A stretch of 19,819 nucleotides of DNA from positions 1,603-21,421 of the forward strand of contig CAYLZE010000089.1 in the NCBI GenBank assembly GCA_964388035.1, in the 5' to 3' direction. Within the stretch, counting starts at the first letter, position 1. Every line of letters starts with the position of its first letter. Positions 14,796-18,500 of this stretch are shown here, piece by piece. The notes below the pieces were generated by a model. That model worked only from the letters and a program-made list of their open reading frames with translations, made no database searches and had not been told where the DNA came from. The translations under genes and the position numbers were made by a program. This DNA comes from an uncultured archaeon (GTDB taxonomy: Archaea; Asgardarchaeota; Lokiarchaeia; Sigyniarchaeales; SOKP01).

Positions 14796-16189
14796 TTGAA
14801 TAAATATGATATTATTATTGTAGACGGGGGACCTGGGGGCTCGATTGCTGGAAAACCGCAGCAGAATTAGGATTAAAGACCATTTTTTTCGAATGAGGGA
14901 GAAAACCCGGTGAAAAAAATTCCCCCGGTTGCGGTTTAGGACCCCGAATGTGGCGTGATTTTACGATTATGAAAGAATTGACATCCGATAAGTGCCCTTC
15001 AATGAGGGCTGGATCAGCTGCTAGGAATTATTTTGTTAATAAAGAAGGTGAAGTTGCAGGTTATATAATGGTAAGACCAATGGAATCTGTATCTTATGAA
15101 CCGGCTAAAAGTTGGATTACAATGAATGTATATAGAAGCGAATTCGATCCATGGATTGCTAATTTTGCCGTTAATGCTGGAGCTGAATTAAAATTATCCA
15201 CATTAGTTGTTGATCTAATCAGAGAAAATGGAATAAAGGTGTAATTGATGAAAAAGGCGTAAAATATGAAGCCCCCTTGTAATTGGAGCAGATGGCGTAC
15301 TTTCAAAGGTTGCTAAGAAAAGTGGATTAAGATCAAAATGGGCACAAGATCAAGTTACCGTTGTCCCACAATATGATTTTCAAGCACCGCCTGAGAAAAT
15401 TGATGACATTATGGGAGATGAGGCCTTGGCAGTATGGTGGTCAGCATTATTTCCTGCGTCTTATCAAGTTTTTTTTCATGATCGATTTCATCAAGGTTTA
15501 ACAAATTGTTAAATAAATGGGATAAAAATCCATTATTTTATCTTAATCATGTCATCAATTTAAAATATTATCAACGCCTTTTAAAAATTTTAGAAGCTAA
15601 ACCGACAGAATTGCAATCGCATCTTCTCCCTTGGTTACAATATCCTTATAATACACATGGACAGGGTGTTATTTTAATTGGAGATGCTGGAGGTTTTCCC
15701 TGTTCTCTTGAAGCAGAAGGCATTTATCCGGCCATGATAACAGGAAAGATAGCCGCAGAGGTGGCAGCAAATGCTATAACTGCAGAGGATGTATCTAAAA
15801 ATGCATTATCAAAATATGACGAAATGTGGAAAAAAACAAGTATAGGAGAAAAATTTGAAGCAGGAGAAGAACTATATAATATTTGGAAGGCACTTCCATT
15901 TAGCCCGCAAGAAACGATGAGCTGGTTTGTACCAATGTTCATGGAAGCCATGGGGGGTATTTATGATTGGTCAGAACCTCATGCGAAACGAGTTCGGCAA
16001 ATAGTTGCTCATATAAAATCTTACATGCCACGAGCAATTCCGTTTATTATGAAATATGTATTTCCTTTATTTGCAAAGATTTTTGAAGAAGATCTTGATA
16101 AAATGATGAATCCTTCAAAATTAATGGCTGTTCTTCCAAAGTTGATTGAATTGATTCCAAAAAGTAAAAAACGAAGCTTTAAGCATTAA
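14796..16189 (+). pseudogene. Disrupted FAD-dependent oxidoreductase, FixC/geranylgeranyl reductase family
   Basis: Reconstructed across frames: TTG start MNKYDIIIV(D)GGPGGSIAGK, then AAELGLKTIFFE*GRKPGEKN, ...ENGI, GVIDEKGVKYEA, LVIGADGVLSKVA, ...IGDAGG..LEAEGI. Four single-nt deletions (about 14855, 15236, 15274, 15508), TGA at 14894, and Asp in place of the first Gly of GxGxxG. 1394+4 nt = 466 codons. Confidence 0.85.
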
Positions 16190-16592: not shown

Positions 16593-17079
16593 TTAATAAT
16601 ATTCCGTTTCTACCATGGTGGTGCTGTTAACAAGCTCTTGCGCAGCCCTCGTTGCTCTCATTACCTTGGCCATGTTTCCTACAAGCTTAAACTTGCCTGC
16701 CATTAAGCCTTGAATCGGATCAAGCTCCTTTCTTAACACCTTTATCCAGTTATCATAAGTACCAGAAAATACAAATTCAGCACCCACTTTTTGACCCTCC
16801 TTTAATGGCCTAGGGGGTGTATTTGGAGGAAGAGCATCATATCCTTCATTATCAGCTAATGCCTTAGCACCCGTGCATTTGCCGTGCAAAAGTCCCACAA
16901 ACATCATTAATTTCTTTTTCAAATTGCCGCTTGGTTCGATTACGAAAACGAAATCGCCTTAGGGAAACTGGTATTAACCCAATTTATTCCCACCATGAAG
17001 CGGCATCGGCATAATTCTTATTATTATTTATAGCCTTGCAAAATTCCTTGGCCCATTCATTACTCGCAAATTTTGCCAC
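16593..17079 (-). CDS. SCP2 sterol/lipid-binding domain protein, split by a 28-nt putative intron (exon 1 17079-16987, exon 2 16958-16593; 152 aa joined)
   Basis: GTG start at 17079 after purine-rich AGAGGGA gives MAKFASNEWAKEFCKAINNNKNYADAASWWE; exon 2 reads GDFVFVIEPSGNL...GLLHGKC...YDNWIKVLRKELDPIQGLMAGKFKLVGNMAKVMR. The joined 'W-E-G-D-F-x-F' is typical of this SCP2 family. Confidence 0.85.
16959..16986 (-). other. Putative 28-nt mRNA intron (relaxed BHB type) in SCP2 gene: TAAATTGGGTTAATACCAGTTTCCCTAA
   Basis: Starts with in-frame TAA, length 3n+1, 7-bp stem AAATTGG/CCAGTTT, intron CCC pairs with exon GGG, removal gives WWE|GDF. Confidence 0.75.
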
Positions 17080-17317: not shown

Positions 17318-18500
17318 TTAAATTCCGACACCGATGGTGTTTCCAATTCCAGCAAGTATTATCTTTGAACCCTTTTCGGTATAATTTCGAATCGTCATTT
17401 TAACTTTTTCCACGATTTTAGGAACGGATTGAGTGATGGGCCTGGTCATCGTTGTTATGGCATTTTCCAATGACTGCATGCATATGAGGGCATCAATAGG
17501 TATTTGCTTGTGGGTGGAGGAATCTTCAATATAATATTTCTCAACACCCACACCACCGATTGCCGCACCAACACCAATGGCTATGGAACCGGTTTTATCA
17601 CTACTTAATTTCAATCCGGCATCAATCATGATAATGCGCGAAATGGAATCACCTTGTTCATCGACTAATTTTTTAATGGCCTTTCCTGGTTTGCCCACAG
17701 TTCCTCCCGGACCTTTAGCTCGTACTACATAGACAATCCTATCCTCAAAGTTTACTTCTTGGACAATCGTGTCTTTTTCCGTTTCTAAAACTTTTACATC
17801 TCCATTCTGTACGACGTCTCTTATGAAGCTTCCCGCGACCATTGGTCCTAATGCATCACCAATAGGACTGCCTTCTGAAAATGCTTTAGTGGCTCTATAA
17901 TAAGATTTAGCCATTCCCATGATCATACCCATTTGCATGGATAATTGGAGGAGCAATATCATGGATTTAGTTTTTTTACCCATTATTAAATAATGCTTAA
18001 TCAACCGATGTACATAATCAACAGCCATTGCGGCCTCAAGTAAATTTTCAAGATTATTTCCCTGCGCCTTATCTGCAGTTGGGGCGAGTTCCTTTACTTC
18101 TTTTTCAAATCGATTGTCTCTAATATTCAAAATATGGTCAAATTTAGGGATAATTCCTTGAGGATCAAGTTGCACGGGGCCAATAGTCACGAAAGTCATG
18201 AAATCTTCAAGTTTTAGCATTAAATCCTTTTCAGTTTCCTTTTTGTCCGCGAATTTTTTAAAGTTAGATAAAAGTATCTGCTTACATTCTTCGTTCCAGC
18301 CGGTTAGTTCTGTTAAACCTTGTTCTATATCCTTTGCTGCTTTCCATGCTTGTATTTTTTTTAAGGAATTGAGATCATGCTGTCCCAATTTGTCCGTAAA
18401 ACATCGAGATAAATATCAAGAGGAAAAACAACAAATTCAGAATAAGTGCAAGCGGATCCGCTGTTTGTTGTCCTAATCCTAATTGAAAAATTGAATACAT
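17318..18500 (-). CDS. DUF1512 family membrane-anchored protein, split by a 31-nt putative intron (exon 1 18500-18392, exon 2 18360-17318; 383 aa joined)
   Basis: ATG 18500 gives MYSIFQLGLGQQTADPLALILNLLFFLLIFISMFYG (one TM helix); joined reading continues QKIQAWKAAKDIE. Body has DUF1512-type motifs: LDPQGII, PIGDALGP, GPGGTVG, IDAGLKL, GAAIGG, GIGNTIGV. Confidence 0.85.
18361..18391 (-). other. Putative 31-nt mRNA intron (relaxed BHB type) in DUF1512 gene: AAATTGGGACAGCATGATCTCAATTCCTTAA
   Basis: Contains in-frame TGA, length 3n+1, 8-bp stem AATTGGGA/TCTCAATT, central ACGG/CCTT pairing, exon stem TTTT/AAAA, removal gives FYGQKIQAW. Confidence 0.77.

What the first reader, a model, noticed from the sequence alone, without database searches (positions are those of the whole stretch)
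16959..16986. 28-nt hairpin insert in the SCP2 gene whose excision restores WWE|GDF
mRNA sense: ...TCATGG TGGG AA^T AAATTGG GTTAATA CCAGTTT CCCT AA^G GCGATTTC. Central helix UGGG/CCCU (3 G-C pairs plus a U-U mismatch), 5' bulge AAU, 7-bp intron stem with one G-U, 3' unpaired AAG. The outer exon helix is weak (CGC/GCG across an internal loop), so this is bulge-helix-loop-like. Cuts at ^ give TGG TGG GAA GGC GAT TTC. Unspliced, translation stops at the first intron codon (31-aa peptide), and the ORF-track start at 16922 lacks the N-terminal SCP2 helices. Boundaries can slide 2 nt (AA) without changing the product.
Basis: partly seen in the sequence, partly recalled or inferred. Interest (0 to 1): 0.85.

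Follow-up and report, generated by a model that had tools for sequence, protein, structure and literature searches.

The report
tRNA-type mini-intron in Asgard SCP2 gene
A 28-base hairpin that breaks a lipid-carrier (SCP2) gene of an Asgard archaeon is very probably an intron cut out of the messenger RNA by the tRNA-splicing enzymes, a kind of splicing documented in print for essentially one archaeal coding gene (cbf5).

Summary
Window 16959-16986 (minus strand) is an exact 28-nt insert between the codons for WWE and GDF of a 152-aa SCP2 protein. More than 100 homologues run ungapped across this junction, and the same-genus relative lacks exactly these 28 nt.

The intron reading is supported by comparison, not by RNA data. 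Five other Asgard lineages carry inserts of 29-31 nt at the very same junction. All six share one build:
- exon UGGG, then a 3-nt bulge (AA^N);
- a 7-9 bp stem of unrelated sequence with a small loop;
- 4 nt that pair with UGGG, then AA^G.

Lengths are 28, 29, 30, 31, 31 and 31 nt. Five shift the frame and the sixth starts with a stop. Both exons remain under strong purifying selection (omega about 0.04-0.06).

The genome encodes two EndA paralogues and RtcB, and its tRNA introns have the same build. I verified five further such introns in its coding genes, including the neighbouring DUF1512 gene.

The motif is relaxed (HBh'), with no exon-exon outer helix. An exon-2 hairpin may replace that helix.

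No transcript evidence could be obtained.

Earlier notes of this scan report similar introns in other genes of this genome and in SCP2 genes of another Asgard genome.

The parts
16987..17079 (-). Exon 1 of the SCP2 gene. It starts with GTG and has 31 codons ending AASWWE.
   Evidence: Translation. It aligns to residues 1-31 of 152-aa homologues. In three independent intron-bearing pairs pN is 0.09 against pS 0.65.
16959..16986 (-). The 28-nt intron (UAAAUUGGGUUAAUACCAGUUUCCCUAA). The cuts can slide over the AA repeats without changing the product.
   Evidence: An exact 28-column gap against G162 (A2). Its first codon is an in-frame TAA. The geometry-fixed shuffle gives P = 4e-4.
16593..16958 (-). 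Exon 2 of the SCP2 gene: 121 codons beginning GDF, plus TAA.
   Evidence: Translation. Pfam SCP2 hit. 85% identity to P0003 over its full length. There is no start codon before codon 13 of the exon, yet those codons are conserved as protein.
16989..16992 (-). Exon strand of the central helix H (UGGG).
   Evidence: It pairs with CCCU at 16961-16964. The three G-C pairs have probability 0.77-0.78 in the ensemble. The same exon letters occur in all six intron-bearing genes.
16986..16988 (-). The 5' bulge AA^U, with the cut after the second A.
   Evidence: 3 nt lie between H and the inner stem. The bulge is AAU or AAA in all six lineages (listing).
16965..16985 (-). Inner hairpin h'. The stem is AAAUUGG/CCAGUUU (7 bp, one G-U) and the loop is GUUAAUA.
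   Evidence: Pair probabilities of the five inner pairs are 0.92-0.98. The other lineages have stems of 7-9 bp at the same place with unrelated sequence.
16961..16964 (-). Intron strand of the central helix H (CCCU).
   Evidence: The counterparts in the other lineages are CCCU, UCCG, ACCU, CUUA and CCUA.
16958..16960 (-). The 3' bulge AA^G, with the cut after the second A. The G is the first base of exon 2.
   Evidence: It is AAG in all six lineages.
16937..16956 (-). Exon-2 hairpin (CGAUU ... AAUCG) just after the 3' cut. It may stand in for the missing outer helix. This role is inferred.
   Evidence: It has 5 pairs in 5 of 6 intron-bearing genes and 4 in the sixth. In 27 intronless orthologues it has mostly 3-4 pairs, with 5 in only one. 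It is part of the MFE fold. Synonymous divergence is low in the first 12 codons of exon 2 in two pairs.

Best explanation
The 28 nt are a bulge-helix-bulge (BHB) type intron of the relaxed HBh' form, sitting inside a protein-coding mRNA.

Proposed mechanism:
- In the primary transcript the last exon letters UGGG pair with CCCU near the 3' end of the insert.
- The rest of the insert folds into a 7-bp hairpin.
- This presents two 3-nt bulges (AA^U and AA^G) on opposite strands, 4 bp apart.
- The archaeal splicing endonuclease cuts after the second nucleotide of each bulge. Here it is probably a two-subunit (alpha-beta)2 enzyme.
- RtcB joins the exons to give GAA|GGC, and probably circularises the 28-mer.
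- Only the spliced mRNA encodes the 152-aa SCP2 protein. The unspliced mRNA stops after 31 codons.

Shown: the anatomy, its conservation and covariation in six lineages, purifying selection on both exons, and the presence of the enzymes.

Inferred: the cleavage and ligation themselves, the enzyme's subunit make-up, and any role of the exon-2 hairpin as a stand-in for the outer helix.
For: 1. Exact restoration. Removing 28 nt joins AASWWE to GDF. The full-length homologues aligned are ungapped there, and G162 lacks exactly these 28 nt.

2. Recurrence at the same junction in six lineages:
- G000, 28 nt;
- G163, 31 nt;
- G151, 30 nt, in frame but beginning with UGA;
- NCBI MAG contig L088, 29 nt;
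- Logan contig L089, 31 nt;
- JGI contigs L092/L093, 31 nt.
These come from independent assemblies, so an assembly artefact is excluded.

3. Same geometry, different sequence. Each has UGGG, a 3-nt bulge, a stem of 7-9 bp, a loop of 4-8 nt, 4 nt pairing with UGGG, then AA^G. Geometry-fixed shuffles give P between 5e-6 and 6e-4 for five of the six. Stem pair probabilities are about 0.9-1.0.

4. L089 and L092 share a homologous intron, identical at 25 of 31 nt, while their synonymous sites are saturated (pS about 0.7). The six differences lie in the loop (four), in one compensatory shift of a bulge in the stem (C-G with bulged U becomes U-A with bulged G), and in one G.U to G-C change in H.

5. 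Selection. Omega is about 0.035-0.06 for intron-bearing pairs and for G000 against G162. The 12-18 codons of exon 2 that precede any start codon are conserved as protein.

6. Machinery. The genome has two EndA paralogues. One keeps Tyr/His/Lys candidates by eye and matches the catalytic chains 3p1z_B and 3ajv_B best. The other is divergent. RtcB is present. Asgard EndA is reported as (alpha-beta)2 with the L1 loop that confers broad specificity (PMC5829648).

7. Context.
- tRNA introns of this genome have the same build and size, for example tRNA-Tyr at 30 nt and tRNA-Met at 23 nt.
- Four other coding genes of G000 carry like inserts at conserved motifs. In the FGGY kinase, Pfam profile positions 78|79 are contiguous across the cut. 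In the Zn-ADH the motif is CG|I|CGSDVH. The other two are a UBC-like gene and an MFS gene.
- The neighbouring DUF1512 gene has a 31-nt one that G162 shares.
Against: - There is no RNA evidence.
- The central helix is imperfect. It has a U.U mismatch in three lineages and only two pairs in L088. In G151 and L088 the thermodynamic fold prefers a register slipped by one nucleotide.
- There is no conserved exon-exon outer helix, so the strict hBHBh' motif is not met.
- The local fold is not more stable than shuffles (z = -0.39).
- The distribution is sporadic. Only 3 of 400 phylum genomes carry the insert, and the same-genus relative does not.
- My genome-wide ORF-fusion scan showed an excess over frame-shifted decoys only at the strictest motif setting: 11-17 against 3-10.
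Confidence: 0.85

Rival explanations
1. The gene is a pseudogene, or carries a neutral recent insertion, and no full-length SCP2 protein is made.
For: The insert places a stop after codon 31. The nearest relative G162 has no insert. The distribution is sporadic. The same window holds a truly frameshifted gene at 14948-16189.
Against: Six lineages keep an insert at the identical junction with intact, strongly constrained exons (omega 0.035-0.06). L089 and L092 share a homologous insert across saturated synonymous divergence. The inserts always keep the same RNA geometry. It is the only copy of the gene in the genome. The decayed gene at 14948-16189 changes frame where there is no room for an insert of this size.
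Confidence: 0.05
2. Translational bypassing. The ribosome hops over the hairpin, as in phage T4 gene 60 or the byp elements of Magnusiomyces mitochondria. The comparison rests on my own knowledge of those systems.
For: The insert is short and hairpin-forming. A stop codon follows the last exon-1 codon directly in four of six lineages. The insert lengths are not multiples of three.
Against: Bypassing needs matching take-off and landing codons. The take-off codon is GAA, but the triplet before exon 2 is UAA (three lineages), AAA (two) or GAA (one). The conserved features are a 4-bp helix between exon and insert end and two 3-nt bulges. These are what EndA reads, not what a hopping ribosome needs. 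The same build occurs in tRNA genes of the genome.
Confidence: 0.03
3. The gene is split. The 31-aa peptide and a C-terminal protein started downstream are made separately and assemble.
For: Gene callers report 103-119-aa products from the downstream start in several assemblies (P0091, P0108, P0074).
Against: The 12-18 codons between the insert and the first ATG/GTG/TTG of exon 2 are conserved as protein in five of six lineages, so they are translated in continuity with something upstream. The position of the first start differs between lineages.
Confidence: 0.03
4. The insert is an assembly or sequencing artefact.
For: The genome is a MAG with 7% estimated contamination. One relative's apparent split is a scaffold gap of N (G269).
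Against: Independent assemblies from NCBI, JGI, Logan and GTDB genomes hold structured inserts at the same junction. No N or repeat lies at the site.
Confidence: 0.01

Closest known systems
BHB intron in the cbf5 pre-mRNA of Crenarchaeota (Watanabe 2002; Yoshinari 2006; Yokobori 2009, PMC2738675)
   Same: A short intron inside an archaeal protein-coding gene. It is presented as a bulge-helix-bulge and removed by the tRNA splicing endonuclease. It is linked to hetero-oligomeric EndA and shows a gain/loss pattern among relatives (abstract seen; reference titles).
   Different: A different gene (an SCP2 lipid carrier, not cbf5) and a different phylum (Asgard/Promethearchaeota). The motif is relaxed, with no exon-exon helix. 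In this genome it is one of several coding genes so interrupted. Splicing is not yet shown experimentally.
Non-canonical tRNA introns of Asgard and TACK archaea (PMC5829648; bioRxiv 10.64898/2026.10.13.758758)
   Same: The same size and build as tRNA introns of this very genome. The same presumed enzymes. Sporadic, repeatedly changing presence among relatives, as reported for Asgard tRNA introns.
   Different: The host RNA is an mRNA, so excision must be exact to the nucleotide to keep the frame. The exon half of the motif is made of codons (Trp-Glu / Gly-Asp). That preprint does not mention mRNA introns: the word 'mRNA' does not occur in it.
HAC1/XBP1 unconventional mRNA splicing by IRE1 and RtcB in eukaryotes (from my own knowledge; the pathway is named in PMC13149111)
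   Same: A small structured intron (26 nt in XBP1) is cut by a protein endonuclease and the exons are joined by RtcB. Removal shifts the reading frame and so decides which protein is made.
   Different: The endonuclease (IRE1) and the recognition motif (two 7-nt loops) are unrelated. That system is stress-regulated, and nothing here shows regulation.
Programmed translational bypassing (T4 gene 60; mitochondrial byp elements)
   Same: Short hairpin inserts in coding sequence, often followed by a stop, of variable length and not a multiple of three.
   Different: The take-off/landing codon match is absent in five of six lineages. The conserved helix-and-bulge geometry and the archaeal enzyme set point to RNA cutting, not ribosome hopping.

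Membership tests
Archaeal BHB (EndA-dependent) intron, relaxed HBh' form | A central helix of 4 bp between the two cut sites | tested here: met
   UGGG/CCCU gives 3 G-C pairs plus a U.U mismatch in G000. The six lineages have 3, 3, 4, 2, 4 and 4 pairs. Ensemble probability in G000 is 0.77. The helix is imperfect, within what relaxed motifs allow.
Archaeal BHB (EndA-dependent) intron, relaxed HBh' form | 3-nt bulges on opposite strands, with the cut after the second nucleotide of each giving the correct product | tested here: met
   AA^U and AA^G. Cutting there removes 28 nt and yields GAA|GGC, in frame with the 152-aa homologues. The same rule restores the frame in all six lineages (listing).
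Archaeal BHB (EndA-dependent) intron, relaxed HBh' form | An inner helix h' directly next to the 5' bulge and to the intron strand of H | tested here: met
   7 bp in G000 and 7-9 bp in the others, with unrelated sequences and compensatory changes.
Canonical hBHBh' motif | An outer exon-exon helix h continuing from H | tested here: not met
   By inspection, only 2 of 5 possible pairs form in G000 and none is conserved among lineages. An exon-2 hairpin lies at this place instead.
Archaeal BHB (EndA-dependent) intron | The host encodes a splicing endonuclease of a broad-specificity type and an RtcB ligase | tested here: met
   Two PF01974 paralogues. One is like crenarchaeal catalytic chains and one is divergent. 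RtcB scores 553 bits. The L1 loop itself was not examined.
Archaeal BHB (EndA-dependent) intron | Excision and exon ligation seen in RNA (cDNA junction, circular intron) | not testable with these tools
No spliced copy turned up in the pattern scans.
cbf5 pre-mRNA intron family | The intron lies in the cbf5 (pseudouridine synthase) gene | tested here: not met
   The host gene is SCP2 (Pfam PF02036). It works like that family but is not a member.
Translational bypass element | Identical take-off and landing codons flanking the gap | tested here: not met
   The take-off codon is GAA. The triplet before exon 2 is UAA, UAA, GAA, UAA, AAA and AAA in the six lineages.
Group I / group II self-splicing intron | A ribozyme core of hundreds of nt | tested here: not met
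   The insert is 28 nt. Rfam found nothing in the window.

The most novel reading that the evidence does not exclude
The SCP2 insert is one of a genome-wide population of EndA-type micro-introns (about 28-35 nt) in ordinary protein-coding genes of Lokiarchaeia-like Asgard archaea.
- They are gained and lost repeatedly at sites where codons can supply the exon half of a BHB.
- In this case an exon-internal hairpin stands in for the outer helix, giving a 'nicked' BHB.
- Splicing is then an obligatory, possibly regulated, step in expressing dozens of genes in the closest prokaryotic relatives of eukaryotes.
Probability: 0.45. Interest if true: 0.9.

Novelty: new member of a known kind. Interest (0 to 1): 0.8.

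Why it matters
- In the literature I could search, endonuclease-type introns inside archaeal coding sequences are documented for cbf5 of Crenarchaeota. A 2026 preprint on Asgard introns deals with tRNA genes only.
- Here the same machinery appears to serve mRNAs of several unrelated genes: SCP2, DUF1512, a sugar kinase, a dehydrogenase, a UBC-like protein and a transporter. The host belongs to the lineage closest to eukaryotes.
- This bears on how protein-dependent mRNA splicing could arise. It gives a natural system for studying intron gain and loss at a fixed site.
- It also has a practical consequence. Gene callers truncate or split such genes (103-119-aa 'SCP2' entries), so Asgard proteomes and pseudogene counts are biased.

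Tried and rejected
- RNAalifold on a MAFFT alignment of the six introns gave no sensible consensus. The intron sequences are not alignable by sequence, so I used geometry-fixed counts and shuffles instead.
- Apparent splits that are not introns:
  - G269 is a scaffold gap of N;
  - G223 is a contig end;
  - the P0120 contigs hold an intact gene whose start was called downstream;
  - L090 and L091 have single in-frame TAA codons elsewhere;
  - L094 is a fusion with a riboswitch.
- The pattern scan of 400 phylum genomes gave about 100 hits. Only G000, G151 and G163 carry the insert. Of the other hits, the 44 checked by tblastn are not interrupted SCP2 genes, and the rest were not tested. The metagenome and all-GTDB pattern scans added no new lineage.
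- The genome-wide ORF-fusion scan with a loose motif gave 1.7 million motif hits. It showed no excess over frame-shifted decoys. Intergenic hairpins between same-strand genes make a high background, and only the strictest motif showed an excess.
- The paralogue-spanning test could not serve as a statistic, because loose motif hits at a true site make the decoys restore the frame too. It did yield individual candidates that I then checked with Pfam.
- Comparing 231 kb of G162 with G000 found only in-frame coding indels and no new intron.
- A register shifted by one nucleotide (cuts GGGA^A / NA^AG) loses the inner-stem contact and was rejected by inspection.

Full report
**What is there**

On the minus strand the window holds an SCP2 gene in two pieces.
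- Exon 1 (16987-17079) starts with GTG and encodes 31 residues ending AASWWE. A TAA follows directly.
- Exon 2 (16593-16958) is in another frame. It begins GDFVFVIEPSGN and runs for 121 codons to a TAA. It carries the Pfam SCP2 match.
- Between them lie 28 nt (16959-16986).

The gene sits in a conserved neighbourhood of DUF1512, SCP2, HAD hydrolase and PPDK. It is the only copy in the 5.47-Mb MAG. The names that sources give to homologues place the organism among Asgard archaea (Promethearchaeota).

**Check of the observation**

- A search with exon 2 found 223 homologues, most of them 151-152 aa.
- In alignment A1, exon 1 and exon 2 abut exactly on AASWWE|GDF, with no residue missing or extra.
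- The same-genus genome G162 has an uninterrupted gene. Its DNA alignment with the window has a single gap of exactly 28 columns (A2).
- The local fold is not unusually stable (z = -0.39). With the geometry fixed, however, only 0.04% of shuffled inserts pair as well.

**Comparative evidence**

Two other genera of the same family carry an insert at the identical codon junction: G163 (31 nt) and G151 (30 nt). I then looked at homologues that gene callers had truncated. This added an NCBI MAG contig (L088, 29 nt), a Logan contig (L089, 31 nt) and two JGI contigs with one sequence (L092/L093, 31 nt).

All six read as follows:
- exon UGGG;
- bulge AA^U or AA^A;
- a stem of 7-9 bp, in three cases with one bulged base;
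- a loop of 4-8 nt;
- 4 nt facing UGGG (CCCU, CCCU, UCCG, ACCU, CUUA, CCUA);
- AA^G, then exon 2.

The stems have unrelated sequences. Geometry-fixed shuffles give P between 5e-6 and 6e-4 for five of the six. The sixth (G163) has a bulged A that my strict count does not allow. Stem pair probabilities are about 0.9-1.0.

The lengths are 28, 29, 30, 31, 31 and 31 nt. Five of the six shift the frame, and the in-frame one begins with UGA.

**Selection**

- Synonymous sites between intron-bearing genes are saturated, while dN is 0.09-0.16. Omega is therefore about 0.035-0.06.
- L089 and L092 share a homologous intron, identical at 25 of 31 nt. That is far more conserved than their synonymous sites (pS about 0.7).
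- Their six differences are structure-neutral. Four lie in the loop. One is a coupled change that moves a bulge (C-G with bulged U becomes U-A with bulged G). One turns a G.U in the central helix into G-C.
- The 12-18 codons of exon 2 that lie upstream of any ATG/GTG/TTG are conserved as protein in five of six lineages. This argues against a separately started C-terminal product.

**Machinery and context**

- The genome has two EndA paralogues.
  - One is a 202-aa protein closest to the catalytic chains of the Aeropyrum and Pyrobaculum enzymes.
  - The other is a divergent 200-aa protein.
- RtcB is present.
- The literature reports that Asgard EndA is (alpha-beta)2 with the L1 loop, which allows relaxed motifs (PMC5829648). 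It also reports that Asgard tRNA genes are heavily interrupted (bioRxiv 10.64898/2026.10.13.758758).
- ARAGORN finds only 22 tRNAs here, 15 of them with introns. Several of those introns have the same build and size as the SCP2 insert.

**Other coding genes**

My own scan of the genome, followed by Pfam checks, found like inserts in four other genes:
- an FGGY kinase (C149:3761-3790), where exon 1 ends at Pfam profile position 78 and exon 2 starts at 79, restoring ITNQ|RET;
- a zinc alcohol dehydrogenase (C50:19070-19098), restoring CG-I-CGSDVH;
- a UBC-like protein (C38:34333-34362);
- an MFS transporter (C55:21570-21601).

The DUF1512 gene next door in this window has a 31-nt insert (18361-18391). 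Its removal restores MFYGQ|KIQAW, which homologues read ungapped. G162 has that intron too, with the stem kept and the loop changed.

Earlier notes of this scan had listed several of these genes and more. I treated them as leads only.

**Form of the motif**

A hairpin within exon 2 starts three bases after the 3' cut (16937-16956). It has 5 pairs in five intron-bearing genes and 4 in the sixth. In 27 intronless orthologues it has mostly 3-4 pairs. It may flank the 3' bulge in place of the outer helix. This is an inference, and the lineages compared are not independent.

**History**

On a quick tree the six intron-bearing genes are scattered, each next to intronless relatives. Well-supported branches do not exclude a single origin. 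Repeated gain at a favourable site and repeated precise loss both remain possible.

**What is missing**

- No transcript data could be obtained.
- The central helix is imperfect in several lineages. In two of them the thermodynamic fold prefers a slipped register.
- The genome-wide statistics were weak except at the strictest motif.

**Verdict**

The insert is very probably a BHB-type intron removed from the mRNA by EndA and RtcB (confidence 0.85). It is a new member of a known but very sparsely documented kind.

Noticed in passing
window 18361-18391 (minus strand); exon 1 18392-18500, exon 2 17318-18360: The neighbouring DUF1512 gene is broken by a 31-nt insert of the same build (ACGG AC^A, 8-bp stem AAUUGGGA/UCUCAAUU, CCUU AA^A). 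Removing it restores MFYGQ|KIQAW, which homologues read ungapped. G162 has an insert at the same place (L120), with the stem kept and the loop changed. Its 5' arm shares AAAUUGGG with the SCP2 intron.
   Followed up: yes
G000 contigs C149:3761-3790(-), C50:19070-19098(+), C38:34333-34362(+), C55:21570-21601(+): Four more coding genes of the same genome carry 29-32-nt BHB-like inserts at conserved motifs: an FGGY kinase, a Zn-dependent dehydrogenase, a UBC-like protein and an MFS transporter. Pfam matches continue across the cut.
   Followed up: yes
window 14948-16189 (plus strand): A geranylgeranyl-reductase-like reading frame changes frame three times within about 300 nt. At the two changes examined closely there is no room for a 28-nt insert. 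It looks like a decaying gene or sequencing error rather than introns. It also interrupts the conserved SCP2-HAD synteny.
   Followed up: partly
L094 53-228 (ENA contig, 873 nt): A cobalamin riboswitch aptamer (Rfam RF00174, 56 bits) runs straight into an SCP2 reading frame. The frame begins near the usual intron site (ASWWEGDF) and lacks the normal N-terminus. This is either a chimeric contig or a rearrangement.
   Followed up: partly
L090 about 76-78 and L091 about 329-331: Two metagenome SCP2 genes have a single in-frame TAA in the N-terminal helix region, and their products were called from a downstream start. The cause is unknown: error, pseudogene or recoding.
   Followed up: no
G000 C7:54735-54839 (minus strand): ARAGORN calls an intron-containing tRNA with anticodon CUA (labelled Pyl) in this genome. 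It finds only 22 tRNAs in all, which suggests many tRNA genes are too interrupted to be found.
   Followed up: no
G000 C10:71608-71640 and C47:4846-4878: Two contigs of the MAG hold near-duplicate copies of one region. Both carry a 33-nt in-frame coding insertion relative to G162. This fits strain duplication or contamination in the bin.
   Followed up: partly
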